DNA from: Halorarum halobium
GTDB taxonomy: Archaea; Halobacteriota; Halobacteria; Halobacteriales; Haloferacaceae
Length of the DNA: 64,000 bases
Assembly: GCF_032116555.1 (NCBI RefSeq)
Contig: NZ_CP134950.1
Coordinates: 62,001 to 126,000, forward strand
Direction of reading: 5' to 3'
Below are positions 13,665 to 46,242 of this stretch, piece by piece; the first letter of the stretch is position 1, and each line of letters begins with the position of its first letter. The notes beneath the pieces are model-generated. The model made no database searches, was not told the origin of the DNA, and was given only the letters and a program-made list of their open reading frames with translations. The position numbers were made by a program, and so were the translations under genes.

Positions 13665-13696
13665 TGTTTTTTCTGCCCCGGAATGGGGTGCGGGGC
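13665..13696 (+). promoter_or_regulatory. T-tract + GC hairpin upstream element, copy 1
   Basis: TGTTTTTTCT GCCCCG GAATGGGGTG CGGGGC, 26 nt before ATG 13722. Confidence 0.7.
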
Positions 13697-13721
13697 GGTT
13701 CCTGTGCTGCCCCTGATTCAT

Positions 13722-14012
13722 ATGCCTGGTCCGGATAGATACGACGATACGGCAGACGATCACGAACGGTTTGAGGCGGAATTGCTCGCTCAGGATCGGG
13801 ATGCGCGGTCACCATCGACGTCAGATCTCGACGACGAGACTGCCCGACAGCTGGTTCGAAAGCTACTCGATGCCGGAACGGTCACACCGATCGTCGACCA
13901 GCGGCTCCTCGTTCACGAGCCCAGCGACACAGCGTTCGAATCGATGCAGCAGCTCGCCGTCTTCCACACGGGCTGGACGGCCGCCCACGACGCCGGCGAG
14001 GCGGACGAATGA
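13722..14012 (+). CDS. Hypothetical protein
   Basis: Acidic ORF after the hairpin element; overlaps the next gene (ATGA). Confidence 0.7.
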   Translation: MPGPDRYDDTADDHERFEAELLAQDRDARSPSTSDLDDETARQLVRKLLDAGTVTPIVDQRLLVHEPSDTAFESMQQLAVFHTGWTAAHDAGEADE

Positions 14013-14338
14013 GGCAGCAGACGCTGGCCGGCTGTGCCTTCTGTGAGGCGCCACCCGGGACAGAGACCGGGATTTCCTACACGTGGGGGAAAGAAGAGCG
14101 GGTCAGCCACCCGATTTGTGTCGACTGTGCGATTCAGGAGACAGCAAATCCCGACGAGTGTGATCACTACGCCTGTGATAGCTGTGGCCTCGTCGTCGAC
14201 GCGCTCGCAGCGCTTGCACGGTTTCGGATCGAACTCGGCCATCTCGAAGGCCCGATACAGGTCTGTGCACGGTGTAGTCCAGGCGGGCCGGCAACGTACT
14301 GGACGCGCGACCTCGACGCGCACATCGTCACGAATTGA
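14009..14338 (+). CDS. Cys-rich zinc-finger protein
   Basis: Four CxxC pairs. Confidence 0.75.
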   Translation: MRQQTLAGCAFCEAPPGTETGISYTWGKEERVSHPICVDCAIQETANPDECDHYACDSCGLVVDALAALARFRIELGHLEGPIQVCARCSPGGPATYWTRDLDAHIVTN

Positions 14339-14486
14339 GGTGCTTGGCGGTCGTCCACACGAGTGGAACGGCCCCACGGCGGTAGATCCACAGCTGCCCG
14401 TGGCTACACCATCCTACGCCCCAACAGCGCTGTTTGTGTCGCTGTCCGGTCGCTCCGCTATCTTCAACAGACGGGCGCTCCTCGGG

Positions 14487-14843
14487 ATGACTATGGACTG
14501 CCCCGCGTGCGGGTCCCCAGTCACCCTCAAGGTCGGACCGGACCGGCCGCTTTCGACGTCGTTGTCCGACGCCGTCCTTGCAGCCGAAGAGGACGAGCAT
14601 ATCGAAGTGACCCGAGACTGTTGGGACTGTGGCTGGCACGAAACGCGGGCGCTTCGCGTCACATCGATCGACACGACCGCCGGCGACGAGACTGCCGTCG
14701 AGCGAGCCGCGTTCATCGACGAGATTACCGATGAGCTCGCGGCGATCGGGAGTGTGGATACGCTCGAGGAGACGCTGGCTGCGATCCGCCGGCAACGAGC
14801 AACGAACCCGGCGACGACCGATACGGACGACCCCACGGAGTGA
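14487..14843 (+). CDS. Zinc-ribbon protein (CPxCG)
   Basis: CPACG and CWDCG motifs. Confidence 0.7.
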   Translation: MTMDCPACGSPVTLKVGPDRPLSTSLSDAVLAAEEDEHIEVTRDCWDCGWHETRALRVTSIDTTAGDETAVERAAFIDEITDELAAIGSVDTLEETLAAIRRQRATNPATTDTDDPTE

Positions 14844-14849
14844 CCCGAC

Positions 14850-15179
14850 ATGCCTGATGCTGAGCCCTGCTATAACGTTCGTGAGCAAACCGGGAATCCC
14901 GAGCACGCATCGGTCGACGATGTGGTCGACCTCGTGATCCATCGGGCGCAGAACCCGCGAACCGAGCACGAGGATGCGCATTTCGATACGGCAGTCGCGG
15001 CTCTCGTCGACAGATACGGAACGGAGTCGGTCCGGACCGTCATCCACTGCATCCTCGTCGACGACGAGCCGTTCCGGACCGCCACGAACGGTCTTGAGAT
15101 GCGTAACATCGACGGCGTTCGGATCGGGACGGCAGCCAGCTGGTTCCTCGAGGAGCTGAACGCACAGGCCGACAGCTGA
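14850..15179 (+). CDS. Hypothetical protein
   Basis: Acidic ORF, operonic spacing. Confidence 0.7.
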   Translation: MPDAEPCYNVREQTGNPEHASVDDVVDLVIHRAQNPRTEHEDAHFDTAVAALVDRYGTESVRTVIHCILVDDEPFRTATNGLEMRNIDGVRIGTAASWFLEELNAQADS

Positions 15180-15263
15180 GGGGCCGTTTGAAAGCCCGCG
15201 ATGAGGGGCCTTCTATCCCCCATTTTTAACCCCTCTTCGCCCTACGTCCCCGTCGAGACTATA

Positions 15264-15524
15264 ATGGCGCCCTCCACTCCGAAAGGCTCAGATCCATCCC
15301 CCGATCTACTCGTTGAACTCGTCGAGATACTGGACGCCCACGGGTTGGCAGGTGATTCGTATCAGCTCCACGACGCCGTCGACGTCGACGCACTCGAACA
15401 GCTTCTTGCATCCTCGACCGGCGATGTCGAGATCCGGCTCACCGTTGAGGGGGTCCAACTCGTCATCACCCACGACGGCGTTGACGTCCTTCTTGACGAG
15501 TCGAACGGGGCACCGGACCAATAG
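15264..15524 (+). CDS. HalOD1 output-domain protein
   Basis: LHDAVDVDALEQLL...IRLTVEG...V...G pattern. Confidence 0.7.
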   Translation: MAPSTPKGSDPSPDLLVELVEILDAHGLAGDSYQLHDAVDVDALEQLLASSTGDVEIRLTVEGVQLVITHDGVDVLLDESNGAPDQ

Positions 15525-15557
15525 CACGATCGGAGTCTCCCACAACGACCCTCCCTG

Positions 15558-15670
15558 AAAGCCCTCGGCCGCTCGGCATCCCGCGACCACCGCTGCGCTC
15601 CTCGTGCCTGCGGTGCTTGCGGAGTCGGGGGACGACCGAGGCGGCCTCGCCCTTTCTGAGTCCGCCAGGG
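15558..15670. repeat. Haloarchaeal interspersed palindromic repeat (short mobile repeat/MITE-like)
   Basis: GAAAGCCC...GCTGCGCTCCTCG...TGCGGTGCTTGCG...CGCCCTTTC...GTCCGCCAGG, an imperfect palindrome of a type I recognise from haloarchaeal intergenic regions. Confidence 0.55.
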
Positions 15671-15699
15671 CAGTAGCTGGATCGCCGAGTGTCGCGGCC

Positions 15700-16200: not shown

Positions 16201-16206
16201 GATCCA

Positions 16207-17087: not shown

Positions 17088-17276
17088 CTGGTGAGTGCCA
17101 GACCGGCCCAAGCCCCGCCGCCCCACCCACCGCTCCGTGCTCGCTCCCTGCGGTCGCTGCGCGCGCAGCCACAACCTCGGGTACGGGTCCAACATTTATC
17201 AGTAAAACCAGGGGGAATCGGTGCGCGAATCAGCGTGTCGTTTCACGCCAAAATGGATGTGGGCGCGTTCCCGACA

Positions 17277-23869: not shown

Positions 23870-23980
23870 AGCGCAATTTCTTAGGAATATGTATTATACC
23901 TTGTGCGAACGTTCGGGGCACAGCATCGTATATCAATCTTCCCCGCCCCCAGTCAGGCACTTCAGTCCTGCGTAGAGTCT

Positions 23981-24004
23981 ATTATCCCCTCAATGGGTGA
24001 GGGG
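23981..24004 (+). promoter_or_regulatory. Hairpin upstream element before tfb
   Basis: ATTAT CCCCTCA ATGGG TGAGGGG. Confidence 0.55.
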
Positions 24005-24044
24005 CTCGCCGTATCGGCGGTTTTCCCAAACAGCGGTGAGAACA

Positions 24045-24965
24045 ATGGCAACCAGAGACATCTACGAGACTGGATTCGACGAAGACGCCCAGACAGACTC
24101 GAATACCAACCAATGTCCCGAGTGCGATGGATACGTCATCACGAACGTCAAGGAAACGGTCTGCGAGGACTGTGGCCTCGTCATCGAAGAGCAACGTCTC
24201 GATCACGGGCCGGAGTGGCGAGCGTACGATGAGGACGAGCGGGAACGGACGGGTGCTCCGCTGACGGCAGCGCGGCACGACCGAGGCCTCTCGACCGAGA
24301 TCGGCCACGGAACCGATGCACACGGGAATGAACTCTCTGGGCAGAAACGCCGGCGGCTGGCCCGGATGCGACGTGAACAGACCCGTGGTCGCTGGCAGTC
24401 CAAAGCGGAACGGAATCTGGCACACGGGTTGGGCGAGGTGCGCCGGCTAGCGAGTGCGCTCGAGCTCTCCGAGTCGCTTCGCGACCAGGCGTGCCAGCTC
24501 TTCCGGAGCGCCCAGAACGAGGATCTGCTTCGTGGCAGATCCATCGAAGCCATCGGCGCAGCGAGCATCTATGGTGCCTGCCGGTGTAACCAACACCCGC
24601 TCCTCCTCGAGGATGTCGTCGACGCCGCCCGAGTCGAGTCCACTCGTGTCACCAACGCCTACCGAATACTGAATCGCGAATTGGAGCTGCCGACACCACC
24701 AATGCGCCCGACGTCGTTCATTCCGCGCCTGATCTCGGAGCTGGAGTTGGACCACGACATTCGCCGACGCGCGAACGAACTCGCAGAACGCGCCGAGGGG
24801 ACAGCTCTCATGAACGGCTGTCAGCCATCAGGCATCGCGGCCGCCTGCGTCTATCTGGCCGCCCAGCAGCAGGGCGCGTGGATCACCCAATCCACCGTTG
24901 CGTCGGCAGCGGAGGTGTCAGTCGTGACGCTTCGTAGCCGGCGGGACGAACTCCAAGCGATCTGA
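24045..24965 (+). CDS. tfb: Transcription initiation factor IIB
   Basis: CPECD...CEDCG Zn ribbon, GPEWRAY B-reader, HDRGLST, ERNL, LRGRS and cyclin repeats. Confidence 0.95.
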   Translation: MATRDIYETGFDEDAQTDSNTNQCPECDGYVITNVKETVCEDCGLVIEEQRLDHGPEWRAYDEDERERTGAPLTAARHDRGLSTEIGHGTDAHGNELSGQKRRRLARMRREQTRGRWQSKAERNLAHGLGEVRRLASALELSESLRDQACQLFRSAQNEDLLRGRSIEAIGAASIYGACRCNQHPLLLEDVVDAARVESTRVTNAYRILNRELELPTPPMRPTSFIPRLISELELDHDIRRRANELAERAEGTALMNGCQPSGIAAACVYLAAQQQGAWITQSTVASAAEVSVVTLRSRRDELQAI

Positions 24966-26118: not shown

Positions 26119-26159
26119 TTAACCAACAAATCCCTGTGGAGATGGCTTCCGTTGGTTAA
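26119..26159. repeat. TTAACCAAC-N23-GTTGGTTAA inverted-repeat site 1
   Basis: Arms 26119-26127 and 26151-26159. Confidence 0.9.
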
Positions 26160-26234
26160 CACGGTGAGTACCCTCAAGTCCGACCACAGTCACGTGGAGT
26201 GTCTATCCGCGCCGGCGAGTGGTGAGGCGCTTCG

Positions 26235-26423
26235 ATGAATCAGCAAGTCGAACAGGGCTACCGGATGCATCGTGTACTCAGCAATCTCAGCCGGCTCGAC
26301 GTCGACCGGTTGGACGATACGGATCGAGAGCGAGTCGAGACCGCGAGAGACCTCCTGGAAGAAGTGAGTCTCCTCACGCGACCAGAGGACGGAAGCGGGC
26401 CAGACGCCCCAACAGACTCCTAA
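26235..26423 (+). CDS. Small hypothetical protein
   Basis: 62-aa acidic ORF with upstream GGTGA SD-like motif. Confidence 0.55.
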   Translation: MNQQVEQGYRMHRVLSNLSRLDVDRLDDTDRERVETARDLLEEVSLLTRPEDGSGPDAPTDS

Positions 26424-26511
26424 CCCGGCGTCGCCGTCCACGCTAGGGGCACCTCCAGAGTCGGTTTATTGTCCCCCAAGAGGAGTGCGGGGCTTCCCCG
26501 CGAGTCCAGAC

Positions 26512-26892
26512 ATGGCGACACTGCAAGCCGCGACGACGTCCACCGGCGCAATCGTATCGGATCCTCAGGCAGTCCGTGAACTCTGTGAGAGCTACTGCTT
26601 CGGGACGCTCAACTGGGAGGTCACCGACAAGGGCGAACTCACCATCTGGGGATATGATGACTTCGAAGTGTACGAGGCGCGCGAGAACGGCCTCCCGGAC
26701 TACGAGGGCGGCATCGTGACCCACGAATTCTTGCGAGAACTCGCCGACCACCTCGAAGTAGACGAGAAGCTCGACATCCAGACAGCCGGGTTCACAAAAT
26801 GTCGCTTCCCGGTGCTAGCGAAGCGGTACGTCGTTCGCGACGGCGAAGTCCTCCACGCGGACCTCAGTTCCCCCAACCCGATCGACGAGTAG
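26512..26892 (+). CDS. Hypothetical protein
   Basis: Acidic ORF after hairpin element 26464-26492. Confidence 0.75.
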   Translation: MATLQAATTSTGAIVSDPQAVRELCESYCFGTLNWEVTDKGELTIWGYDDFEVYEARENGLPDYEGGIVTHEFLRELADHLEVDEKLDIQTAGFTKCRFPVLAKRYVVRDGEVLHADLSSPNPIDE

Positions 26893-26961
26893 AGTTGTTC
26901 ATTCCCCGGGAGGGGTGCGGGGCGATCCAGTCGTGGGTCGCCCTGCGAGGTGATTGTTCAA

Positions 26962-27624
26962 ATGGGCCACCGCGCACTCGTTGCGTACGAACGAACCGAC
27001 GGACAGTACACGCTCCACTACTCTCATTGGGGTGCTGCGAACCTGAAGCTCAAGCACCGAATCTCGGCTAAGTCGCCGTTCGGTGGCGAGGATACCGACT
27101 CGAAGTGGGCGAAGCAGCTGCTGGCGGAACTGGCCGATGGCCTCGAGGCAGATGCGGTCGACGGCTACCTCGCTGACGAGGACCGACCGTCGACGGTCGT
27201 CGAGCCGAAGCCCCGCGCCACCGCGCTCACCCTCGACGAGATCGTCGCTGACCATCTCGACTACCTCCACCACGAGGCGTTCTTCGTGGTGTCGACGACG
27301 TTCGAGGTGACCGCCTACCGGACGCTGTGGTTCGGCCTGCAGTACGACTCGGAGACAGTCGAACAGGGAGAGACGGTCGGGAACGGCGCGCTCGCGACGG
27401 TGCGCTGGTACGACGGCGAGCCGGTCGGCGACGGCCACCTACAGGGACAGTTCGCGGCCCTCAAAGACGTCGTCGGCGACATGCTCGACAAGGGCGTCTT
27501 CACGCCGTCGACGGCGAGACAGTACCTAAAACGGAAGCTGGCCGAGCGGGTCGGAGACCGACAGGAGCTTCGCATTCCGACCGGGGAATCACCCTTCGAG
27601 AAGGCGAGCCTCGGCAAGACGTAA
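26962..27624 (+). CDS. Conserved haloarchaeal plasmid protein (DUF6735-like)
   Basis: MGHRALVAYER...YSHWG; after hairpin element 26895-26922 and GAGGTGA SD. Confidence 0.7.
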   Translation: MGHRALVAYERTDGQYTLHYSHWGAANLKLKHRISAKSPFGGEDTDSKWAKQLLAELADGLEADAVDGYLADEDRPSTVVEPKPRATALTLDEIVADHLDYLHHEAFFVVSTTFEVTAYRTLWFGLQYDSETVEQGETVGNGALATVRWYDGEPVGDGHLQGQFAALKDVVGDMLDKGVFTPSTARQYLKRKLAERVGDRQELRIPTGESPFEKASLGKT

Positions 27625-31185: not shown

Positions 31186-31307
31186 CTCTGCACGCGGAAA
31201 GTGCGGTCAGGACGCTCCTCTTTCGCGACTTTCCTTCGCTATATCGAGACAATTTGCAGTTTGTCTGGGGCAGTAGAGACTGAGCCCCTCCGTAGGCTCG
31301 TGATTGG

Positions 31308-31730
31308 ATGCCCGAGAAACCAGACGACGACCCATTCCACGATTGCGAGTTCGGTCCCGACGCAGTCCTCGGGACCCGCACCTTCCACGATGTCCTGTTC
31401 ACCGACGACACGGAGACACCGGTGAACGTGCTGACCGGCGAGACGCCCGCACATTCGCAAGCAACCGTCGAGGAAGCGAAGGCGTTCGCTGCGAGTATCG
31501 ATACGGACACACCACAAATCGCGCTCCCGGCCTCTGTCGAGACGCAGATCGAAACCCAGAGCAAACCCTACACCTCGGCTGCGTTCTTCCACTTCAAGGC
31601 GACCGGGTCGCTCGAACTGCACCGTGCCTACCACGCCGCCTACGACTCCGACGCGTTTAGCGTCGACTTCGAGGCCGACTACGAGTCGGGCGACCTGACG
31701 ATCACCGTCGAGCAGACAGGCGATTCCTGA
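31308..31730 (+). CDS. Hypothetical protein
   Basis: Acidic 140-aa ORF. Confidence 0.7.
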   Translation: MPEKPDDDPFHDCEFGPDAVLGTRTFHDVLFTDDTETPVNVLTGETPAHSQATVEEAKAFAASIDTDTPQIALPASVETQIETQSKPYTSAAFFHFKATGSLELHRAYHAAYDSDAFSVDFEADYESGDLTITVEQTGDS

Positions 31731-31837
31731 ACGCGATCTCGCGAAGCGAGTTTTTCGAGCGCCGGCGATGGGTGCCGGCGCACCGAACAGACAGTGTCGA
31801 GCAGCGCCCGGTGAGTCGGCGTTCCGAGGTGAACCAG

Positions 31838-32338: not shown

Positions 32339-32344
32339 TTGACA

Positions 32345-32710: not shown

Positions 32711-32782
32711 AAACGGACGCACGTAGGGTGTTTTTCGGCCGGGGCGGAGAGAGTGACCCGGTCGAACCGGGTCGGCCCAACA

Positions 32783-33178
32783 ATGAGTCTTGAAGTACTC
32801 GACCGACACAGCGAGGCACTGTTCGAGTTCCTCTGGTGCCCCGTCTGCGGTCAGGAATTGTTCACCCACATTCCCTTCGAGGGAGTGTTCTGCAAGAACT
32901 GCAATACGCAGGTCGTCCTCCGAGAGTCCCAAGAAAACCGTGGCTACGAGGAGGCTGTGCTCGCGTGCTTCGACACCGACTCGACGTGGAACCTTCACGT
33001 CGACGAGAAGCTCCGTCGCGACCTGCCTGACGGCTCGGCACGGGTGAAAATCCTCGGCGCACCGGGGGCCTACAAAGTCGACTGGTGGAGTCCAGCACCT
33101 GGGGAGGATTGGGAGCCGGTCAAGCGCGGAGAGTTCGACGATGTCGAGGAGCCTAAGGAGGTCTCCCACCTAGCGTAA
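32783..33178 (+). CDS. Zinc-ribbon hypothetical protein
   Basis: CPVCG...CKNC; hairpin element 32729-32764. Confidence 0.75.
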   Translation: MSLEVLDRHSEALFEFLWCPVCGQELFTHIPFEGVFCKNCNTQVVLRESQENRGYEEAVLACFDTDSTWNLHVDEKLRRDLPDGSARVKILGAPGAYKVDWWSPAPGEDWEPVKRGEFDDVEEPKEVSHLA

Positions 33179-34425: not shown

Positions 34426-34786
34426 GTCACTACCGGCCGCTACGGTGAACAGTCACAAAGGAGTTCCCACGGCACGTACCTTACCGGTGACCGACAGACA
34501 TCACCTGCATTCGGCAACAGAGCGGCGAGAATCGTTCTACGATGTAGTCCCCACTGGGGACCCATACACAGTTGATTCAGTGACGAGTGGGCTCTCCAAT
34601 CTCGAACTGCCGACTTCGTCACGTCTCCAGCAACACCAATGGAGCTCCGGACTCTCTCGACGTGTTCATCGTACGCCCTATCATCGCCGTAGCGAGAAAG
34701 GGACAAGATCCTAACGGGTGCCGTGAAGGCGCCTGTTTATTCTGCGCCGGCGATGGGTGCCGGCGCACACGCGCCGGCGAGTACCG

Positions 34787-35356
34787 ATGTCGACACGGAG
34801 CCAACTCCGATTCGTCCAACGAGTCGAACAGCCCGGTGAGACGGATGGCGGCGCCGACCGCGTCGCGCAGGTGTATCGGCATTCGGATGGCTACCCGGGG
34901 AGCGTCCTCCGGGACCTCGCACAGCTGAAAGAGCTGCTCGATGCGACCCGTGCCGAGCGCGGACCGGGCTACACGGCCGCGACGTTCGTGTTCCTCGACA
35001 AGCTCTCGACGGTCGGCCTCTATCTGGATGGCGACCCAGAGCGAACGATCGACGCAGCCCAGCCCGCTGACCTCCTCGAGCCGGCCAACATGGAGCATCT
35101 CGACCAGCCGCTGTTCCTGCTGGGCCACGGTATCGAGGCTCCTGCTGACGGCATTCACGGCGACGAGGAGTACCTCTATGTGGTGGAGCTCCCGACGGAG
35201 AACCCGTTCGACGAGCCCGCCGAGTGGACCGTCAAGGTGAGCGGTCACTCTGCATTCCCCCGCTGGGACGGGCCGACTGACGAGGCTTTCGAACGGGCAA
35301 CCTGGCAATTCCGCGGCCCGCTCGAGGACGCACTCACCGACCTCGTCACCGAATAG
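34787..35356 (+). CDS. Hypothetical protein of the YxHxDGYP family
   Basis: MSTRSQLRF...VYRHSDGYP...HGDEEYLY; hairpin element 34734-34767. Confidence 0.75.
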   Translation: MSTRSQLRFVQRVEQPGETDGGADRVAQVYRHSDGYPGSVLRDLAQLKELLDATRAERGPGYTAATFVFLDKLSTVGLYLDGDPERTIDAAQPADLLEPANMEHLDQPLFLLGHGIEAPADGIHGDEEYLYVVELPTENPFDEPAEWTVKVSGHSAFPRWDGPTDEAFERATWQFRGPLEDALTDLVTE

Positions 35357-37234: not shown

Positions 37235-37310
37235 GACGACACGCCGACTCCGGAGTGTATTTTCCCGTCCCACAAGGGGTGCGGGACGGCACGACCGTCC
37301 CGGGTCATCG

Positions 37311-37757
37311 ATGAGTTCTGCAAGCGACAGCGAAAACGCACCTGATCACTGGTGGCTGTATCGCCGAACAGACGACGAGCACTTCGTCTTCGCATACGAG
37401 TTCTCGAAGTCCGTCCTCTGCCACGTTCAGCGACCCTCGGACTGGCTGGTCCGGGTCGACCGGGCTGATGGGACGATCCTCTTCAGCCAGCACGACCTCC
37501 AGTCGCGAGCAGCGGCGTTCGACCTCGCCGAGAGCGTCATGGAGCTCTGTACGATGCTTCATCGGGAGGTCGTCACGGAGCGGAGCCAAGCGCGAAAGCC
37601 GATGTACGTCGGTCCCCGACCAGCGGGGGGTGCAAACGCGAGGACTTGGGGGACTGGCCATAGTCCAGACACCGCCCATCGTCCATCCGATTCCCGTCCA
37701 CGGCATCCACCGGGGCGACCGAAAGAATTCGGACGGCGATGGAGTGGCTACCGATGA
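37311..37757 (+). CDS. Hypothetical protein; 3' end possibly frameshifted in a G-run near 37625
   Basis: ATG after hairpin element 37256-37289; C-terminal part loses acidic composition. Confidence 0.5.
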   Translation: MSSASDSENAPDHWWLYRRTDDEHFVFAYEFSKSVLCHVQRPSDWLVRVDRADGTILFSQHDLQSRAAAFDLAESVMELCTMLHREVVTERSQARKPMYVGPRPAGGANARTWGTGHSPDTAHRPSDSRPRHPPGRPKEFGRRWSGYR

Positions 37758-38308: not shown

Positions 38309-38386
38309 GGACGGTGAGGGCGTTTCCGGTTCTGTTTGTAGAACCCCCGAGAGGGGTGCGGGGGTTACCACTCCCGCGACGTACCG

Positions 38387-39073
38387 ATGAACGGGAACGC
38401 ACGACGCCCCACGTCGAACGTAGTCCAGACAGAAGCGCTCGCTAACCGTCGCGACGACTCCGTCGAATACGTCGGCTTTCGCGTTGACGGCCACGCCGTC
38501 GTTCTGAATCTCTCCGAACACCAGTGTCTCACTCCTGATCGAAGTCTCGATCTGGTCAACCACAGCCCGACAGGCTTCGAGTGGGGATATGCTGGAAGCG
38601 GGCCCGCACAGCTCGCTTGTGGGCTCCTCCTCGACTACTACGACGACGCCCGGATCGCCCGAGAACACTACATCGGGTTCCGAAATCGCGTGATCAGCCA
38701 GCTCAAGTGTGATGGGGCCGCGGCGTGCTGGCACCTCACCGGCGAAGAAATCGACGCGGCGATGGCGACGATCACCGACGACGTCGTCGCCCTTCCCGAC
38801 GGCGGGCAGCTGTCACCGTCACTCCCCGAGAACTGGCGAACGGTCACTCGCCCCGACCGGCGAGTCTTCCAGCGGGCTGATCACGACCACTACATCGTGC
38901 TCGGGGAGGGAACCGACGGCTGGCTGGCCGTCCTCTGCAGTCAGGGCGATCGCGCCTATCCGGCACCCCTGGCAAGCCGGACGGTTTCGGACGATGCCGA
39001 TGTCGAGCGGGCCATCCGTGCCCTCGTCGACGAGAGCAACGACCTCATCGAGCCACCGGAGGGGGAGTACTGA
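38387..39073 (+). CDS. DUF6166-like protein, paralog 2, with extra C-terminal domain
   Basis: NHSPTGFEWGYAGSGPAQLA; hairpin element 38333-38366. Confidence 0.75.
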   Translation: MNGNARRPTSNVVQTEALANRRDDSVEYVGFRVDGHAVVLNLSEHQCLTPDRSLDLVNHSPTGFEWGYAGSGPAQLACGLLLDYYDDARIAREHYIGFRNRVISQLKCDGAAACWHLTGEEIDAAMATITDDVVALPDGGQLSPSLPENWRTVTRPDRRVFQRADHDHYIVLGEGTDGWLAVLCSQGDRAYPAPLASRTVSDDADVERAIRALVDESNDLIEPPEGEY

Positions 39074-40438: not shown

Positions 40439-40479
40439 TTAACCAACAGACAGCCCCTTCCTAGGTCAGTGTTGGTTAA
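40439..40479. repeat. TTAACCAAC-N23-GTTGGTTAA site 2
   Basis: Arms 40439-40447 and 40471-40479. Confidence 0.9.
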
Positions 40480-40571
40480 CGTGGTGTTGTTGTTGCGCCC
40501 GGCAGAGGGGCGCAGGGCGCGAGACGATGCAGGCAGCCGTCGATGAGCGTTCCTGCGTCGGGGTGACTACG

Positions 40572-41732
40572 ATGAAAGACCCAGAGTCGAGAACCATCTT
40601 CGCTGGCGTCGATGGACGTACCGACACCGAACTACCCGAGTGGTATCGTCAGCGTCACGGCGGCAAAGACACCGTGAGCTTCGCTGAGGCGATCCGCGAC
40701 CTCCCGCAGGCCGTCGAGTCAACCGTGGCCTACAAGAATCCGTACACCGACGAGTGGGTCGAGACGGAGCGGTTCAACGCGCTCGTCGAGCCGAGTCGCG
40801 CTCGAGAGCAGGCCCGTGAGGAGGACGCCGAAACGGATTCCTTGTTCCATATTCCGACCGACTCGTACTCGATCATCAACCCGGTCGACGTCTACGGCCC
40901 TCTGGAGGAGGTCCTTCGGGAGGAGACTATCGACGGAACGCCGCTGGGTGACGTGATGTTCGGCGAGATTCGTCGCTACCGGGGCGGCGGCGAGGTCCAT
41001 ATGGACATCATGTTCGACGGCCTCGAGGTGCGCCTCCCCGGCCGGTCGGACCCGATCACGATGGGCGTCACGTCGGGCTACGACTTCTTCGGCGAGCACG
41101 CCGTCTACGTGGAGGGATTCGCCCAGGACGGGTACTGCTCGAATACAATGCGCTCGCTCACCGACAAGGAGGTCATCAAGCACGTCGGCGACGTGCGGAA
41201 TTTCCGAACCTGGTGGGAAGAGATTCTCGCACAGGTCGAACTCGTGGCTGACGACCTCTTCGAGTTCATCCGTGACGCCCAGGACATCGAACTCGACTTC
41301 TCGGAGCTCCCGTTCACCGTCACGGAGTTCTACAGTCTGCTGGGCTTCCCGGACTACCTGGCCGAGCGCGCTGCGAGCGATGCCGAGGCCAACGCGGCCT
41401 CACCCGTCGAGATCGATATGTGGACGCTCCATTCCGGCGCGACGTACGCGCTCACTCACTTCTTCCAGGGCAAGGAGGGTGCGTCGCTGGACGGCTACGT
41501 CCGCACGGCCAACGACATCCTGTTCAACCCTGAGGGTACCATCGAGCGGGTTGAACGCGCCTACGAGGAGCAGCTGGAGGCGGACGGCGACGACGGGTCG
41601 CAGGCGTCGCTCGCCGGTGAGCGGGCACTCGCGAGCATCGAGCGCGTCAGCGACGATCTACAGGAGAAGGTCAATCAGTTCGAGGAGCGTGAGGACGCAC
41701 TCCGTGAGCGGTTCCAGGACGCGATGGCCTGA
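40572..41732 (+). CDS. DUF932-like plasmid/phage protein
   Basis: TDSYSIINP...YCSNTM...KHVG...W.L...TY...H pattern; hairpin element 40485-40520. Confidence 0.6.
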   Translation: MKDPESRTIFAGVDGRTDTELPEWYRQRHGGKDTVSFAEAIRDLPQAVESTVAYKNPYTDEWVETERFNALVEPSRAREQAREEDAETDSLFHIPTDSYSIINPVDVYGPLEEVLREETIDGTPLGDVMFGEIRRYRGGGEVHMDIMFDGLEVRLPGRSDPITMGVTSGYDFFGEHAVYVEGFAQDGYCSNTMRSLTDKEVIKHVGDVRNFRTWWEEILAQVELVADDLFEFIRDAQDIELDFSELPFTVTEFYSLLGFPDYLAERAASDAEANAASPVEIDMWTLHSGATYALTHFFQGKEGASLDGYVRTANDILFNPEGTIERVERAYEEQLEADGDDGSQASLAGERALASIERVSDDLQEKVNQFEEREDALRERFQDAMA

Positions 41733-41798
41733 CGCCGTGACGGTGACGTAGTCGTCTGTTCTGTCTTTCTCCCCCTTCAGGGGTGGAGGGCGATAGAG

Positions 41799-42020
41799 AT
41801 GGAGAAATCAGCGGACAACAGCGGGGCTGACGACGAATTCCCACCCGAGAAGCGCCTCGAAGCACCGAACTACCGACTGGTCAAGGCCGGGATCGCGACG
41901 ATCCCCGATATGGAGACACTCCGTGAGTGTGTCGCCTACGAAAACGCCCACCAGAATCGGACGCAGATTCTGCGTCGGCTCCAGTGGAAGGCCGAAAAGC
42001 TGCGTGAGGATGAGGAGTAG
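41799..42020 (+). CDS. Small hypothetical protein
   Basis: YENAHQNRTQILRRL; weak hairpin element 41763-41790. Confidence 0.7.
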   Translation: MEKSADNSGADDEFPPEKRLEAPNYRLVKAGIATIPDMETLRECVAYENAHQNRTQILRRLQWKAEKLREDEE

Positions 42021-42029: not shown

Positions 42030-42071
42030 TTAACCAACAATCGGAGTCAGCCAACACCTCGTGTTGGTTAA
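42030..42071. repeat. TTAACCAAC-N24-GTTGGTTAA site 3
   Basis: Arms 42030-42038 and 42063-42071. Confidence 0.9.
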
Positions 42072-42144
42072 CGGTGAGAGTACTCCGTTTTTCGGGCCCC
42101 TGAATGGGTGCGGGGCGACCAGCACCCCCCTCGCGAGTTCAGTC

Positions 42145-43146
42145 ATGTCCTTCGATTTGAGTCCAGACTCCAGCACGGCTAGCGACATCGATGCCGCCAG
42201 ACAAGCGGACCATGTGGCGTTCCTCCATCGAGTTCCATTCGTCGCTGATGCGTTGGCCCTCGGATTTCTTCCCGGGTTTCGAGAAGACTGTGGGTATCAG
42301 TCAGACCAGTACCTAAACCTCGAGATTCCTGTGGGGATGCTCGATAACGACTTCCGCAATCCCGACCTGGAACGCTTCGTCGATCGATTCTTCGAGCACG
42401 AGCCACAGGTCGGTGTCATCGGCGACATCTTCGAACCAGATGCCGTCGACGCCCACGTCGCTGCCGCTCGCGAAATCCGAGCGAGCTACCCCGAGGCCGA
42501 GCTCATCGTCGTTCCGAAGTCGCGGGCGGTGATCGACGCGATACCCAATACCCTCGTCCTCGGGTATTCACGGGGATACGCCGACCGCCTGGCCCACGAG
42601 TTCTCCGACCCAGCCGATTGGAGAGGGCGACGCGTCCACATCCTCGGCGGGAGTCCGCCCAAGCAGCTCAACGCCATTCGACAGCTGACCAGACCGACTC
42701 TCACGGACGAGCCACCAGCCGACATCGTCGGCGTCGACTGGAACGGGCTGCATCGCGGCGCACAGTTCGGCGAGTTCTGGACGGCCGACGGCTGGGACGA
42801 CAGCGGTCGCGACGCCGACCACGTCACTGTCCGAAAGACGGTGCGTCACAGCCTCGCCCGGGTCCGCGAGTTCTGGCAGCAACACGGAGTCTGGCCTGAA
42901 TCGACACCGCAAGACGAGGGGCTGACCGTCGAGTACGAGGGTCCGAGTCCTGCCGATCTCGAGGACGCCGCCTGTACCGAGTGCGGGACGAACGTCTGGC
43001 GAACTCGCCGCGGCCCGTACGTCGCCGAATACGATACCGGCGCAATCTGTGGATACTGCAGTTACGAGTGCTACTTCAGCCACCGTCATCGAAACAACCT
43101 GGAGGAGATCGCCGGTGAGCAGAGCGTCTACCTCCCGCCGGCGTGA
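42145..43146 (+). CDS. DUF6610-like protein, possible TGT/DpdA-related barrel, with C-terminal zinc finger
   Basis: MLDND, VHILGGSP, VGVDWN; CTECG...CSYEC; hairpin element 42087-42116. Confidence 0.6.
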   Translation: MSFDLSPDSSTASDIDAARQADHVAFLHRVPFVADALALGFLPGFREDCGYQSDQYLNLEIPVGMLDNDFRNPDLERFVDRFFEHEPQVGVIGDIFEPDAVDAHVAAAREIRASYPEAELIVVPKSRAVIDAIPNTLVLGYSRGYADRLAHEFSDPADWRGRRVHILGGSPPKQLNAIRQLTRPTLTDEPPADIVGVDWNGLHRGAQFGEFWTADGWDDSGRDADHVTVRKTVRHSLARVREFWQQHGVWPESTPQDEGLTVEYEGPSPADLEDAACTECGTNVWRTRRGPYVAEYDTGAICGYCSYECYFSHRHRNNLEEIAGEQSVYLPPA

Positions 43147-43217
43147 CTTTGCGACCTGTTTTTCGTGCCCCCCGAGAGGGCGAGGGCTCCTTCGAAAGCT
43201 CTCAGAGGTGACTTCCA

Positions 43218-43580
43218 GTGAGTCAACAACAGAGTCCCGACAACGTCTCGATCGACGACATCCCAGTCGATATCGCAAACACGCAATCAGAGAAGATCAA
43301 TCCCGCCGATGTCCCCGACGAGATAGAGTCTATCACCCGTGGGCTCGCCGGTGAGCAGCCGCCGACGAATCCCATAGTGGTTCTCAAAGCGGCTCGCTGG
43401 TGGTATCTACACGGCAAGGGCGGGTCGGATCCCGCCTTCCAGTGGGCTATCGAGTGGGCACGTCACCTTGCGACCGACACGCCTAGCGACGTCGAGCAGT
43501 TCGACGAGTTCCTCGAGTACCTTGTTTCCCTTGACTTCGCGCAGAATCGGCAGACACTTCGAGGAAGAGCAAACGACTGA
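43218..43580 (+). CDS. Hypothetical protein
   Basis: GAGGTGA SD; hairpin element 43158-43187. Confidence 0.7.
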   Translation: MSQQQSPDNVSIDDIPVDIANTQSEKINPADVPDEIESITRGLAGEQPPTNPIVVLKAARWWYLHGKGGSDPAFQWAIEWARHLATDTPSDVEQFDEFLEYLVSLDFAQNRQTLRGRAND

Positions 43581-43610
43581 TTCACCAGATACGTCAAGAG
43601 ATTCGGATTG

Positions 43611-44069
43611 CTATTCCTCCAGATCGTCAGCAGTAACAAGTCCATCAGGCGTTTCCGCCGGCGTGTAACTCTGATCCTCGCCCATTTTATTCTCCTCAGA
43701 GAGTGAATTCTCGAAGTAGCTCCCGTACTCTGCCTCCATATCGGGAGCGAGTTTAGTAAGGCGTTCATGGGCTTTCTGATATGCTCGGCGGCTGGCTTCG
43801 TCATCAGACAGATCTTCTGGTGCCTCGAAATCCTTTGCCGAGTCCCACACGATCTGCCATCTATCCCCCGTATGGTCGACCGCGATCAATCCACGATTCG
43901 GGAGATTCAGTAATAACTGAATTACGACCGGGCTGTCGTTCGTGTAGTATCCACGCACCGCGACAACCTGCTCGAACATATCATGCTCCGCCAAACTATT
44001 GACAATCTCACCAGAAAGCGGTTGGTCTGGGAGCGATTCAAGTACTCGTGAATCATCAGTTTCGGTCAT
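43611..44069 (-). CDS. Hypothetical protein
   Basis: Acidic ORF, lower GC, co-oriented with the phosphoesterase. Confidence 0.65.
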   Translation of the reverse strand: MTETDDSRVLESLPDQPLSGEIVNSLAEHDMFEQVVAVRGYYTNDSPVVIQLLLNLPNRGLIAVDHTGDRWQIVWDSAKDFEAPEDLSDDEASRRAYQKAHERLTKLAPDMEAEYGSYFENSLSEENKMGEDQSYTPAETPDGLVTADDLEE

Positions 44070-44103
44070 CTGATGGGATGTTACCTCCCCCAGTATTTAA
44101 CAG

Positions 44104-45003
44104 TCAATCCCAACGCACGAATTTCCCGTCATCATTCCGAACGAGCGGTCCGAGTGGATCAGGCCGATCACTTGATAGATACTCAGCGAATTCCTCCTGA
44201 AATCCAGGTGGTGGAGACTCCCATAGCCCGATTGCGTACTCAATCAGTTCATCCTCTGCTGCGAAATCTCGATTCGTCTCCGTGGTAACACCATAGAACG
44301 CTGCGCTCGCCATCTCTCGCATCAGTAGAATTGGCTGCCAGCAATACATACAGCTGTGGTAGTCTGGGCCGATTAGAATCCCTCGTTCCTGGTGTTGTTG
44401 ACAGACAGTAGTATCGAGTCGCCCAATATTTCGGAGGTCAATGTCGAACGGGGGTTCGTCCTCAACGGTCACCACGAAATAGCCACCATAGATAGCTGAA
44501 TCGGCCTTTGAGTCGTCACGGTACAGAAACGCCGAGTTGAGCATCCGCTCCTTGTATCGGCCCGTATGCGTATGGCCACAGAAGTAGGCACGACCGGGAA
44601 AATGGTCAATCATTCCCGTCTCTTCCCAATGAGTGACGAGTATTCCGTCGCTCGATACCGCTTCCGGGTCTTGGGTGAACTGTTGCCCGCCAACCGTGAC
44701 GACGTCGTCCGAGGGGATATGCGTCCCAACGCTCAGATCGTATTCAAGCTCGCCGTAGTAATCTCGATTGCCATAGACGTAGAGAAGCCCGTTTTCAGCG
44801 CGGTTAGCGAGGGTTTCAAGATATGGCTCTACAGCTTGGAGCTGTTCAACACCGGCATCTTCCCCTTCGTTATGAGCATTTGTGAAGTCTCCCACGTGAA
44901 TGATGAAGTCGAAACGTTCATCTTCCGTTTCAGCAGCTACCCGTCTCAGAGCTTCTGTATTTCCGTGATTATCCCCCATTACGAGGAACTGTTGTGTCGA
45001 CAT
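44104..45003 (-). CDS. Calcineurin-like metallophosphoesterase with C-terminal Cys/His extension
   Basis: GDNHG, HVGDF, GNRD, VTH, GHTH motifs. Confidence 0.85.
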   Translation of the reverse strand: MSTQQFLVMGDNHGNTEALRRVAAETEDERFDFIIHVGDFTNAHNEGEDAGVEQLQAVEPYLETLANRAENGLLYVYGNRDYYGELEYDLSVGTHIPSDDVVTVGGQQFTQDPEAVSSDGILVTHWEETGMIDHFPGRAYFCGHTHTGRYKERMLNSAFLYRDDSKADSAIYGGYFVVTVEDEPPFDIDLRNIGRLDTTVCQQHQERGILIGPDYHSCMYCWQPILLMREMASAAFYGVTTETNRDFAAEDELIEYAIGLWESPPPGFQEEFAEYLSSDRPDPLGPLVRNDDGKFVRWD

Positions 45004-45205
45004 AGCATTCGATTTGATTCTTGAGTATATGACTGCGGTGTTGTGAAATCACGCTCAACACCAGAACAACGGCTACGTCTCCATCTCTAATCGAATCCCT
45101 GCTAGCTATTCAGTCGCCCCATTGAGCAACCGCCGATGTGTTTTTTGGCCCCCGAAGGGTGCGGGGCGCTCATCCGGACGTGAGCGTCGCCTGAATTGAG
45201 TGATA

Positions 45206-46132
45206 ATGTTATCGAGTGCCAATTCGCGGGTTAGCTTCGGTGATTCGGATACCCGACACGATCAGATGCATAGTACCATCGAACAGTGGATCGACGACCT
45301 CGTCGCCGGCGTCGACGACGCGCAGGCCAGCGCGGAGTTCCAGGAGTGGCTTGACGTCCAGAGTCGCTTTCACGACTATTCCTACCGGAACACGCTCCTC
45401 ATCAAGCGGCAGTGTCCCGAGGCGAGCCGGGTGGCGGGCTACCGGACGTGGCAGGAGGAGTTCGATCGCCACGTCACGGAGGGTGAGTCGGCCATCTGGA
45501 TCTGGGCACCGATCATCACCAAGCAGTGCCCGGAGTGCGAGAACTCCCCGAGCTACCACGAGGACAGCGACTGTGAGTACGATGAGACCCCGCCCGAGGA
45601 GTGGTCCGAGGGCCTGGTCGGGTTCAAGCCCGCGCCGGTGTTCGATGTCTCCCAGACCGAGGGCGAGCCGCTTCCTGATCTCGACACGGAAGCGACCGGG
45701 GACACCGGCGACCTCGTCGAGCAGTTGACTGCCGCCGCTGATGACCTCGGCGTGACGGTGCGGATCGTTCCAGCCGAGGAGTGGACCCACGGCGAGGCGA
45801 AGGGCATCTGCGAGCAGCTGAGCCTCGTCGACGTCCAGCCGCTCGTCGAGGTGCGTGATCGGGAGAACGAGGCCGACCTCGCGCGGACGCTAATTCACGA
45901 GTACGCCCACGCTCTGCTCCACTTCGACATCGACGACGACACCGAGCGAGCGAAACGCGAAGTCGAGGCCGAGGCCGTCGCGTACGTCGTCGGGCGGTAC
46001 TGTGGACTGGATACTAGCGGGTCGGCGTTCTACCTCGCTGCGTGGGAGTCGGACGATTCCGAGGTCGTTCGCGACCGACTCGGGCGGATCAGTCGGACGG
46101 CAGAGGAACTCATCGACGTTCTCGAAGGCTGA
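45206..46132 (+). CDS. ardC: ArdC-like ssDNA-binding/antirestriction protein with zincin domain
   Basis: FHDYSYRNTLLI..Q...VAGYRTW...R.V..GE.AI.I.AP, VFDVSQT, HEYAH, EVEAE; hairpin element 45138-45167. Confidence 0.8.
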   Translation: MLSSANSRVSFGDSDTRHDQMHSTIEQWIDDLVAGVDDAQASAEFQEWLDVQSRFHDYSYRNTLLIKRQCPEASRVAGYRTWQEEFDRHVTEGESAIWIWAPIITKQCPECENSPSYHEDSDCEYDETPPEEWSEGLVGFKPAPVFDVSQTEGEPLPDLDTEATGDTGDLVEQLTAAADDLGVTVRIVPAEEWTHGEAKGICEQLSLVDVQPLVEVRDRENEADLARTLIHEYAHALLHFDIDDDTERAKREVEAEAVAYVVGRYCGLDTSGSAFYLAAWESDDSEVVRDRLGRISRTAEELIDVLEG

Positions 46133-46150
46133 GCAGCTGACTTCGCGGGT

Positions 46151-46190
46151 TTAACCAACAGATTCGTCGGTCACTCACTTTGTTGGTTAA
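46151..46190. repeat. TTAACCAAC-N22-GTTGGTTAA site 4
   Basis: Arms 46151-46159 and 46182-46190. Confidence 0.9.
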
Positions 46191-46242
46191 GTTTTTCAGC
46201 GCCCGCCGAAGGGCGGAGGCGCATCTCACCCTCCGTCAAACC

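What the first reader, a model, noticed from the sequence alone, without database searches (positions are those of the whole stretch)
13665..46222. About 15 copies of a T-tract + covarying GC hairpin (GGGTG-type loop) heading leading-region genes: candidate archaeal ssDNA-promoter/establishment system
Seen, all on + and about 10-60 nt before a start codon: 13675 GCCCCG-gaatggggtg-CGGGGC; 23986 CCCCTCA-atggg-TGAGGGG; 26473 CCCC-caagaggagtgc-GGGG; 26904 CCCCG-ggaggggtg-CGGGG; 31759 GCGCCGGC-gatgggt-GCCGGCGC; 32736 CGGCCGGG-gcggagagagtga-CCCGGTCG; 34743 TGCGCCGGC-gatgggt-GCCGGCGCA; 37265 CCGTCCC-acaaggggtgc-GGGACGG; 38342 AACCCCCG-agaggggtg-CGGGGGTT; 40495 GCGCCC-ggcagaggggcgca-GGGCGC; about 41770 (weak); 42096 GCCCC-tgaatgggtgc-GGGGC; 43167 GCCC-cccgagagggcga-GGGC; 45148 GCCCC-cgaagggtgc-GGGGC; 46199 GCGCC-cgccgaagggcgga-GGCGC. 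Each follows a T-rich tract such as TGTTTTT. Stem sequences differ but stay paired while the purine-rich loop is kept, the signature of a structure acting in ssDNA or RNA. I saw no such element before the cargo genes (zntA, usp, TA pair, phosphoesterase). Known: bacterial leading regions use Frpo ssDNA promoters, pKM101 CUP elements and pLS20 EGeRS to express ssb/ard genes on entry. Inference: an archaeal counterpart, not described to my knowledge, controlling tfb, ardC, Mom-like and DUF932-like genes.
Basis: partly seen in the sequence, partly recalled or inferred. Interest (0 to 1): 0.9.

Follow-up and report, generated by a model that had tools for sequence, protein, structure and literature searches.

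The report
Haloarchaeal plasmid leader RNA switch
A short T-rich box followed by a GC hairpin is repeated before about 15 gene groups on a haloarchaeal conjugative-type plasmid; it looks like an undescribed foldable mRNA leader tied to the start codon, not a single-stranded-DNA promoter.

Summary
All 15 sites exist, all on the + strand. A covariance model built from 7 of them recovers the other 8. The window lies on a 158.6-kb, 58% GC replicon with T4SS-like genes. The element occurs in 75 of 151 genomes of the family and co-occurs with a VirB4-like gene. Rfam has no match.

Each copy has five parts:
- a T-box (GTT, then T-rich);
- 2-4 nt of spacer;
- a GC hairpin (seg1:seg2) whose stems covary;
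- a loop with a near-invariant A.GGG(T/C)G, which resembles a Shine-Dalgarno sequence;
- a third segment (seg3) downstream, new here, that also pairs with seg2.

The seg2:seg3 helix tolerates G.T but not A.C, so it folds in the sense strand. It covaries across gene families and ends 6-11 nt before the ATG in 14 of 23 families.

My best reading (about 0.5) is a bistable mRNA leader that sets translation of a plasmid "establishment" regulon. The trigger is unknown and the role of the T-box is unresolved.

The Frpo-like ssDNA-promoter reading is not supported. A promoter reading (T-box as TATA box) remains the main rival. No transcript 5' ends could be obtained.

The parts
13663..13724 (+). Element copy 1: T-box, hairpin 13675-13696, seg3, ATG 13722
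   Evidence: R1 38.7 bits; seg2:seg3 helix ends 8 nt before the ATG
23974..24047 (+). Element copy 2, before the plasmid tfb gene (ATG 24045). The hairpin stem is CCCCTCA/TGAGGGG. A canonical GGTGA Shine-Dalgarno (SD) sequence precedes the ATG.
   Evidence: R1 22.2 bits; TFIIB Pfam match; the same hairpin sits before two chromosomal tfb paralogs
26198..26237 (+). Candidate 16th, degenerate copy before a 62-aa ORF (ATG 26235)
   Evidence: R1 8.0 bits, E 7.5; sequence read
26461..26514 (+). Element copy 3, ATG 26512
   Evidence: R1 36.2 bits; helix 2:3 ends 9 nt before the ATG
26891..26964 (+). Element copy 4, before the DUF6735 gene (ATG 26962). A canonical GAGGTGA SD follows seg3.
   Evidence: R1 41 bits; helix 2:3 is 95% paired in 12 orthologs, against 34-64% when slid
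31747..31831 (+). Element copy 5 (stem GCGCCGGC/GCCGGCGC), ATG 31829, canonical SD
   Evidence: R1 19.4 bits and R2 33.7 bits; gap of 15 nt containing the SD
32725..32785 (+). Element copy 6, before the DUF7567 gene (ATG 32783). It is the weakest model match.
   Evidence: R1 10.5 bits, E 1.8; hairpin and a second helix read
34732..34789 (+). Element copy 7, first gene after the divergent usp gene (ATG 34787)
   Evidence: R2 36.5 bits; helix 2:3 ends 7 nt before the ATG; the 1:2 and 2:3 folds are -23.6 and -23.4 kcal/mol
37254..37313 (+). Element copy 8 (stem CCGTCCC/GGGACGG), ATG 37311
   Evidence: R1 38.1 bits; gap 8 nt; folds -21.1 and -20.9 kcal/mol
38331..38389 (+). Element copy 9, before a DUF6166 gene (ATG 38387)
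   Evidence: R1 38.4 bits; gap 8 nt
40483..40574 (+). Element copy 10. Candidate starts are ATG 40527 or the SD-preceded ATG 40572.
   Evidence: R1 12.4 bits and R2 27.8 bits; orthologs keep the downstream SD-preceded ATG
41760..41801 (+). Element copy 11, short-leader class. GGAGG lies inside the 3' arm, 9 nt before ATG 41799.
   Evidence: R1 24.3 bits; sequence
42084..42147 (+). Element copy 12, before the DUF6610 gene (ATG 42145)
   Evidence: R1 39.9 bits; gap 9 nt
43155..43220 (+). Element copy 13, GTG 43218 with a canonical GAGGTGA SD
   Evidence: R1 17.0 bits
45135..45208 (+). Element copy 14, before the ArdC-N/M78 gene, first gene after a divergent gene. The start is GTG 45200 or ATG 45206.
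   Evidence: R1 34.1 bits; Pfam ArdcN and Peptidase_M78
46188..46245 (+). Element copy 15, ATG 46243
   Evidence: R1 14.1 bits and R2 21.9 bits; folds -17.1 and -16.7 kcal/mol

Best explanation
The element is the 5' part of an mRNA leader, either 5'-UTR or intercistronic, shared by many operons of a haloarchaeal T4SS-type plasmid family.

Its RNA has three segments. Seg2 can instead pair with seg3, which sits about 7-10 nt upstream of the start codon or directly against a canonical SD. The two helices exclude each other, and selection keeps both. The leader is therefore a bistable switch that sets access to the ribosome-binding region.

Shown:
- both helices exist and covary;
- folding is in the sense strand;
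- the structure is in register with the start codon.

Inferred:
- the molecule is RNA rather than + strand ssDNA;
- the output is translation.

Open:
- which state is 'on';
- what flips the switch. Candidates are a protein or the 30S subunit reading the invariant GUU and the loop, delayed co-transcriptional refolding, or an upstream ribosome.
- what the T-box does. It could be a U-rich recognition or landing site, a leaky penta-U terminator or processing site for the upstream unit, or additionally a TATA box.
For: Hairpin 1 covaries: 87.6% of cells paired against 66.4% in shuffles, and 116 double-change cells against 39, with 0 of 500 shuffles reaching either value.

Seg2 has a second partner downstream.
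- 59 of 120 distinct copies have a helix of at least 6 Watson-Crick pairs, against 22-35 in 20 shuffles.
- 25 of the 36 internal non-Watson-Crick pairs are G.T and 2 are C.A. In shuffles 67 of 356 are G.T.
- Across 23 gene-family representatives, a family's own leader complements its own seg2 better than other families' leaders do: score 17.35 against 13.34, with 0 of 20000 permutations as high.
- The helix ends 6-11 nt before the ATG in 14 of 23 families. The shuffle mean is 6.4 (sd 2.05), and 1 of 2000 shuffles reaches 14.
- In 12 DUF6735 orthologs helix 2:3 is 95% paired, against 34-64% when slid. It shows 11 one-sided changes that keep pairing.

Energies: four families are near iso-energetic between the two folds, within 0.2-1.6 kcal/mol.

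Three short-leader families carry GGAGG inside the 3' arm, 7-9 nt before the ATG.

The loop GGGGUG pairs with the 16S 3' end, GGATCACCTCCT.

Conservation starts 2-3 nt before GTT and runs on into the downstream gene, while the upstream context changes.

In an RNA library, 3 contigs run across the T-box of copy 9 and 1 contig covers hairpin 1 of copy 4. This is weak, because DNA carry-over is not excluded.
Against: - No transcript 5' or 3' end was obtained, so it is not shown that the hairpin is transcribed.
- No TATA-like AT peak exists anywhere from -70 to -1 upstream of the T-box in 80 distinct contexts. Unit-initial genes (copies 2, 7 and 14) then need promoters that I could only guess at, or the T-box itself is the TATA box. 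In that case the RNA would lack seg1 and most of seg2.
- The T-box to GGGTG spacing is fixed at mostly 21-23 nt whatever the stem and loop lengths. That also fits recognition on double-stranded DNA.
- Hairpin 1 itself shows no clear G.T excess over A.C.
- CCCC-type copies favour the 2:3 fold by 4-12 kcal/mol, so they are not balanced switches at equilibrium.
- Several families show weak or no seg3: ardC copy 14, L045:1284 and L041:15511.
- Families with a canonical SD after seg3 do not obviously need the switch.
- RNAalifold on MAFFT alignments chose other folds.
- Orthologs are not independent, so the counts overstate support.
Confidence: 0.5

Rival explanations
1. Dedicated promoter module. 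The T-box is the TATA box. The hairpin fills the spacer between TATA box and start site. A.GGGTG is a proximal promoter element about 10 bp upstream of a start site just after seg2. It would be read by the plasmid's own TFB, or bound by a regulator, so that each gene group has its own promoter and tfb regulates itself.
For: - The T-box is the only T/A-rich block within 70 nt upstream in 80 contexts.
- It contains TTWT-like cores: GTTTTT in 47 and GTTTAT in 17 of 114 distinct copies. Haloarchaeal TATA boxes are TTWT centred at -27/-28 (Brenneis 2007, PMC2151090, passages read).
- The module boundary lies at the T-box.
- All three gene blocks that follow a divergent gene start with an element.
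- One element stands per operon-like group.
- The T-box to GGGTG spacing is a fixed 21-23 nt, about two helical turns.
- The plasmid encodes a TFB whose own gene carries the element.
- Operator-like inverted repeats lie 0-15 nt upstream of three T-boxes.
Against: - A start site about 27 nt after the T-box centre falls at the end of seg2. Such an RNA could not form helix 2:3, which is supported by covariation, G.T wobbles and its register with the ATG.
- The BRE position is G-rich, not CGAAA, and positions -10/-11 would be GG, not WW.
- GTTGTT (23 of 114) and GTTGCT are poor TATA boxes, and the near-invariant G before TT is not a TATA feature.
- A GC-only stretch would have to melt.
- One DNA-binding protein cannot explain covarying stems.
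Confidence: 0.22
2. RNA element for operon segmentation rather than translation. The T-box is a leaky penta-U terminator or cleavage site that makes the 3' end of the upstream mRNA. Hairpin 1, directly behind it, caps and protects the 5' end of the downstream RNA, or blocks a 5'-to-3' exonuclease from chasing the polymerase.
For: - The longest T run is 5 or more in 57 of 114 distinct copies.
- Haloarchaeal 3' ends carry a penta-U, often after a stem-loop, with 3'-UTRs of 13-154 nt (PMC2151090, passages read).
- Upstream stop codons lie mostly 10-34 nt before seg1.
- In 3 window copies a 10-bp inverted repeat precedes the T-box.
- The hairpin starts 2-4 nt after the T-box in all copies.
Against: - The element travels with the downstream gene, not the upstream one, and occurs after divergent genes where nothing needs terminating.
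- Half of the T-boxes are poor U-tracts.
- This reading does not explain the invariant loop, seg3 or its fixed distance to the ATG.
Confidence: 0.15
3. One reading: an archaeal counterpart of Frpo ssDNA promoters. The hairpin forms in the transferred single strand and drives early transcription of establishment genes.
For: Single orientation in all 21 sources (150 aligned matches). The element is linked to T4SS-type elements and heads ardC and other non-cargo genes. Structure is conserved while stems vary.
Against: - No BRE/TATA-like sequence lies inside the stem, and the T-box would stay single-stranded.
- The hairpin is only about 20-25 nt long.
- G.T, not A.C, wobbles place the fold on the sense strand, which cannot be the template.
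- The structure is in register with the start codon.
- On the chromosome the element keeps its orientation relative to its gene, not relative to the VirB4-like gene.
Confidence: 0.04
4. An ssDNA or DNA-level site unrelated to expression. Options are a priming signal for complementary-strand synthesis, a REP-like hairpin with a conserved 5' head, or a recombination hot spot that shuffles gene cassettes.
For: Invariant GTT head plus hairpin. Copies recur every 0.3-10 kb on one strand. Upstream contexts are swapped exactly at the element boundary. The coupling protein carries a D5-like C-terminal match.
Against: Placement is tight before start codons, and seg3 is in register with the ATG. SD sequences lie inside or beside the structure. 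No inverse core partner for GTT lies on the other side of the hairpin.
Confidence: 0.04

Closest known systems
EGeRS1 / EGeRS2 establishment-gene regulatory sequences of the pLS20 plasmid family (Val-Calvo et al. 2021, PMC8708921; abstract and section 4.1 read)
   Same: A conserved regulatory sequence is repeated before several establishment operons, ardC included, of a conjugative plasmid. The transfer genes lie in a separate operon without it. In both cases an ssDNA-promoter reading was considered and judged unlikely.
   Different: EGeRS1 is 400-600 bp long with many inverted repeats, and its mechanism is unknown. EGeRS2 is a repressor-controlled promoter. The present element is about 35-90 nt, archaeal, with a three-segment alternative fold tied to the start codon. 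There is no sequence relation.
Frpo-type ssDNA promoters of F and ColIb-P9 (as summarised in PMC8708921 section 4.1)
   Same: A strand-specific folded element upstream of early genes of a conjugative element.
   Different: In Frpo, folding rebuilds a double-stranded promoter on the transferred template strand. Here no promoter element lies in the stem, and the folded strand is the sense strand.
Regulons of mRNA leaders with a G-rich, SD-like hairpin loop read by one RNA-binding regulator, and leaders that work by delayed or alternative folding (bacterial CsrA/RsmA GGA loops, phage translational operators, MS2 maturation-gene kinetic trap, T4 gene 38 hairpin-bridged ribosome-binding site). All recalled; no call supports them.
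   Same: Many unrelated genes share a hairpin with a purine-rich, SD-like loop next to the ribosome-binding region. Mutually exclusive helices decide access to the start codon.
   Different: No such regulon is known to me in archaea. No binder has been identified. The invariant GUU box 2-4 nt upstream has no counterpart in those systems.
Haloarchaeal basal promoter and penta-U terminator signals (Brenneis et al. 2007, PMC2151090, passages read; Babski et al. 2016, PMC4983044, passages read)
   Same: The T-box resembles both the TTWT TATA core and the penta-U terminator.
   Different: There is no CGAAA BRE and no WW at -10/-11. A G precedes TT in 111 of 114 copies. Half of the copies have no run of five T.

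Membership tests
Frpo-like ssDNA promoter | Folding of the single strand rebuilds the double-stranded core promoter elements (for archaea, BRE and TATA box) inside the stem | tested here: not met
   Stems are GC-only, and the sole T-rich block lies 2-4 nt outside the hairpin
Frpo-like ssDNA promoter | The folded strand is the template strand of the downstream genes | tested here: not met
   The seg2:seg3 helix has 25 G.T against 2 C.A, so the sense strand folds. Hairpin 1 alone is uninformative.
Frpo-like ssDNA promoter | Active on single-stranded but not double-stranded template | not testable with these tools
   Needs in vitro transcription
Haloarchaeal basal promoter | TTWT TATA core centred at -27/-28 from a mapped start site | tested here: inconclusive
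   TTWT-like cores occur in most T-boxes, but GTTGTT occurs in 23 of 114. No start site was mapped.
Haloarchaeal basal promoter | CGAAA BRE upstream of the TATA box and WW at -10/-11 | tested here: not met
   Positions -6 to -2 before GTT are G-rich. The would-be -10/-11 positions are G in 82-85% of 80 contexts.
Haloarchaeal intrinsic terminator | Penta-U at the transcript 3' end, often after a stem-loop | tested here: inconclusive
   A T run of 5 or more occurs in 57 of 114 copies. A preceding 10-bp inverted repeat occurs in 3 of 15 window copies. No 3' ends were mapped.
Any Rfam 15 family | Covariance-model match | tested here: not met
   0 matches at gathering score over the window, and 0 at E<=5 over 23900-46400
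Cis-regulatory RNA switch (alternative-helix leader) | Two mutually exclusive helices, each kept by selection | tested here: met
   Hairpin 1 covariation. Helix 2:3 cross-family permutation, 0 of 20000 as high. Pair-preserving changes in orthologs.
Cis-regulatory RNA switch (alternative-helix leader) | The structure is coupled to an expression platform (ribosome-binding region or terminator) | tested here: met
   Helix 2:3 ends 6-11 nt before the ATG in 14 of 23 families; 1 of 2000 shuffles reaches that. GGAGG lies in the 3' arm in short-leader families.
Cis-regulatory RNA switch (alternative-helix leader) | The element is transcribed, and an effector shifts the fold | not testable with these tools
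   Only assembled RNA-library contigs were available. No binder was identified.
Integron attC site | Paired inverse-core and core sites (RYYYAAC ... GTTRRRY; consensus recalled) flanking an imperfect hairpin | tested here: not met
   GTT is followed by pyrimidines, and no complementary partner lies 3' of the hairpin

The most novel reading that the evidence does not exclude
Archaeal conjugative-type plasmids run a post-transcriptional 'establishment regulon'. One RNA-binding factor, plasmid- or host-encoded, or the 30S subunit itself through the SD-like loop, reads the invariant GUU box and the A.GGG(U/C)G loop of a bistable leader placed before 10-18 operons. In this way it times a burst of translation of anti-restriction, DNA-modification and tfb genes after entry into a new cell. 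This would be the first regulon-wide RNA switch described on an archaeal mobile element.
Probability: 0.3. Interest if true: 0.8.

Novelty: new variant of a known kind. Interest (0 to 1): 0.62.

Why it matters
Almost nothing is known about how archaeal T4SS-type plasmids express their genes. In the 2026 paper on this plasmid family (PMC13532300) my term look-up found no occurrence of 'promoter'.

A short, easily searched motif marks the regulated operons in many genera of Halobacteria. It therefore defines a candidate establishment regulon made mostly of proteins of unknown function, and it offers a handle for finding anti-defence genes in archaea.

Structured cis-regulatory mRNA leaders are rare in archaea. 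A three-segment switch with a fixed register to the start codon can be tested directly with reporters in Haloferax or Halobacterium. It also bears on the open question of how leadered haloarchaeal mRNAs without an SD start translation.

Tried and rejected
- **RNA evidence.** One run search found only small-share holders kept as assembled contigs. Laying four of them showed no places where molecules begin or end, so no start site or 3' end could be read. Parts without cover mean nothing.
- **Earlier notes of this scan.** Three look-ups, all empty.
- **RNAalifold on MAFFT alignments.** On the 15 sites it gave only 3 pairs, because MAFFT does not align the arms. On two ortholog families it chose other folds: a mini-hairpin plus a G.U-rich long-range helix, and seg1:seg3 in the palindromic GCGCCGGC family. 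I therefore tested named helices directly.
- **Structural seed alignment for helix 2:3.** It came out inconsistent in its columns. No third model was built, and a permutation test replaced it.
- **Translational coupling by a terminating upstream ribosome as the general trigger.** Upstream stop codons lie within about 12 nt of seg1 in only a minority of copies; most lie 10-34 nt away and many further.
- **T-box pairing with the loop or the 3' flank.** No consistent complementarity was seen by eye.
- **K-turn or K-loop, tRNA-like or BHB motifs.** Not evident. This was judged by eye against recalled consensus sequences and not tested further.
- **A hidden TATA box upstream of the T-box.** No AT peak.
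- **Haloarchaeal viruses as carriers.** 1 match among IMG/VR contigs.
- **Model organisms with published start-site maps.** Published dRNA-seq tables could therefore not be used.
- **NCBIfam naming of the element-led proteins.** It added nothing beyond TFB.

Full report
**Setting.** The window is G000:C2:62001-126000. C2 is a 158.6-kb replicon at 58% GC, beside a 3.32-Mb chromosome at 68% GC. Pfam places a T4SS-like block at 573-11471. It holds a TrbL/VirB6-like gene, a TraG/VirB4-like ATPase, and a 1469-aa coupling-protein-like gene with a D5-like C-terminal match. After it comes a long run of mostly + strand small genes: a TFB (23997-24965), DUF6735, DUF7567/7568, two DUF6166, a Mom-like gene, DUF6610 and an ArdC-N/M78 gene. 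Cargo is interspersed: zntA with an HTH regulator, usp on the minus strand, and a metallophosphoesterase on the minus strand. An Orc/Cdc6 gene and a PolB gene lie further on. A 2026 paper describes a haloarchaeal plasmid family with VirB4/VirD4 homologs and ArdC. My term look-up in it found 'promoter' 0 times (PMC13532300, passages).

**Observation.** All 15 listed sites are there.
- A covariance model built from 7 of them found the other 8 on the + strand. The best minus-strand match had E 0.84. Only site 32725 (E 1.8) ranks below any minus-strand match.
- Genome-wide there were 14 matches at E<=1. Eleven lie in this window and 3 on the chromosome. Two of the chromosomal three sit before tfb paralogs with the same hairpin as the plasmid tfb. 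The chromosome also holds a VirB4-like gene with an internal stop at C1:2708443-2710335, so an integrated relative is likely.
- In 151 genomes of the family, 75 have a match at E<=0.01, covering 28 of 41 genera.
- Presence tracks a VirB4-like gene: 63 both, 12 element only, 14 VirB4 only, 62 neither. Related genomes are not independent.
Of the 80 rows shown, 69 are Halobacteria of many genera, several on named plasmids, and 11 are unrelated bacteria.
- IMG/VR gave 1 match. Rfam gave none.
- In 20 fetched loci plus the window, 150 aligned matches lie on one strand within every source.

**Anatomy.** The 114 distinct copies share this order.
- A T-box: G (111 of 114), T (113), T (103), then [T/G][T/A]T[C/T].
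- 2-4 nt of spacer.
- A GC stem of about 5-9 bp whose sequence differs between gene families (for example CCCCC, GCGCCGGC, CCGTCCC, CCCCTCA).
- A loop with near-invariant A (107 of 114), GGG (105-108), T/C, G (108).

The distance from GTT to GGGTG is mostly 21-23 nt, whatever the stem and loop lengths. Stem covariation is strong. Conservation begins 2-3 nt before GTT and continues into the downstream gene, while the upstream sequence changes; one family has six different upstream contexts. The element therefore belongs to the gene behind it. In the window it stands once per operon-like group of closely spaced genes, and it heads all three + strand blocks that follow a divergent gene.

**New finding: a third segment.** The 3' arm (seg2) is also complementary to a stretch downstream (seg3).
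- 59 of 120 distinct copies have a helix of at least 6 Watson-Crick pairs, against 22-35 after shuffling the leader.
- Of 36 internal non-Watson-Crick pairs, 25 are G.T and 2 are C.A. In shuffles 67 of 356 are G.T. The fold is therefore on the sense strand.
- Across 23 representatives of different downstream genes, each seg2 fits its own leader better than other leaders: 17.35 against 13.34, with 0 of 20000 permutations as high.
- The helix ends 6-11 nt before the ATG in 14 of 23 families, with no canonical SD in between. The shuffle mean is 6.4, and 1 of 2000 shuffles reaches 14.
- In another 5 families it ends 13-17 nt before the ATG; this group includes the DUF6735 and 31747-type leaders, where a canonical GAGGTGA follows seg3 directly.
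- In 12 DUF6735 orthologs the helix is 95% paired, against 34-64% when slid. All one-sided changes are GC/GU or UG/UA.
- Three short-leader families have no seg3 but carry GGAGG inside seg2, 7-9 nt before the ATG.
- With Turner parameters, four families are near iso-energetic between the two folds. The CCCC-type copies prefer a mini-hairpin (seg1 with the loop G-run) plus helix 2:3 by 4-12 kcal/mol.
- The loop GGGGUG can pair with the 16S 3' end, GGATCACCTCCT, including one G.U pair.

**Reading.** Two mutually exclusive helices, both conserved, on the sense strand and in register with the start codon, are the signature of a leader RNA that controls translation. I cannot tell which fold is 'on'. 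One possibility is that helix 2:3 loops out and brings the SD-like G-run to a canonical distance from the AUG, so that hairpin 1 is 'off'. That would agree with the short-leader families, where hairpin 1 sequesters GGAGG. The families with their own SD still keep the invariant loop, which argues for a common reader of GUU plus loop. The trigger is open.

**The T-box is the weak point.** It resembles the haloarchaeal TTWT TATA core and also the penta-U terminator (PMC2151090, passages; PMC4983044, passages).
- No other AT-rich block exists upstream in 80 contexts, which favours a promoter role.
- A start site about 27 nt downstream of it would exclude seg1 and seg2 from the RNA, which contradicts the helix 2:3 evidence.
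- BRE and WW signals are absent.
- Half of the T-boxes lack five T in a row.

So either long read-through transcripts carry the leaders, or two transcript forms exist.

**The ssDNA-promoter idea fails** on anatomy and on strand. The closest described analogues in concept are the EGeRS sequences of pLS20-family plasmids (PMC8708921, abstract and section 4.1).

**Is it in print?** I found no description in four full-text searches, judged from their listings only, nor in Rfam.

**Limits.** There are no transcript ends. Orthologs inflate the counts. The main alignment was fitted by the model. Start codons are inferred from ORFs and ortholog conservation.

Noticed in passing
window 26119-26159, 40439-40479, 42030-42071, 46151-46190, 49581-49621, 56105-56145: A second repeat family. 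Six inverted-repeat pairs read TTAACCAACA - 21-22 nt - TGTTGGTTAA at constant spacing. The 9-mer occurs 12 times against 0.11 expected. The arm sequence is invariant, which looks like an operator. The repeats lie just after stop codons, and three of them end 0-15 nt before a T-box. They are also seen before T-boxes in other genomes.
   Followed up: partly
G000:C1:2708443-2710335, with C1:2714810, C1:2745888 and C1:2433857: The chromosome holds a VirB4-like gene (40% identity, one internal TGA) and three element copies, two of them before tfb paralogs. This is probably a decayed integrated relative of the plasmid.
   Followed up: partly
window 4998-9407: A 1469-aa protein combines weak matches (all below Pfam's cut-offs) to the T4SS coupling protein and HerA with a C-terminal poxvirus D5-like match. 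No relaxase or oriT was recognised in the window.
   Followed up: no
window 23997-24965, 52157-53425, 53753-55918: The plasmid encodes its own TFB, an Orc1/Cdc6 and a family B DNA polymerase.
   Followed up: no
window 31250-31307: Before the gene at 31308 there is a T-rich box followed by a hairpin of reversed polarity (G-rich arm first). It is not matched by the models.
   Followed up: no
window 17234-17266: A weak + strand model match (10.8 bits) with a T-box-like GTCGTTTC and a short hairpin, possibly a decayed copy.
   Followed up: no
L033, L035, L041, L049 (10 matches each): Related elements in other genera carry up to 10 copies within 15-20 kb. One genome (G113) had 18 matches spread over several contigs.
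   Followed up: partly
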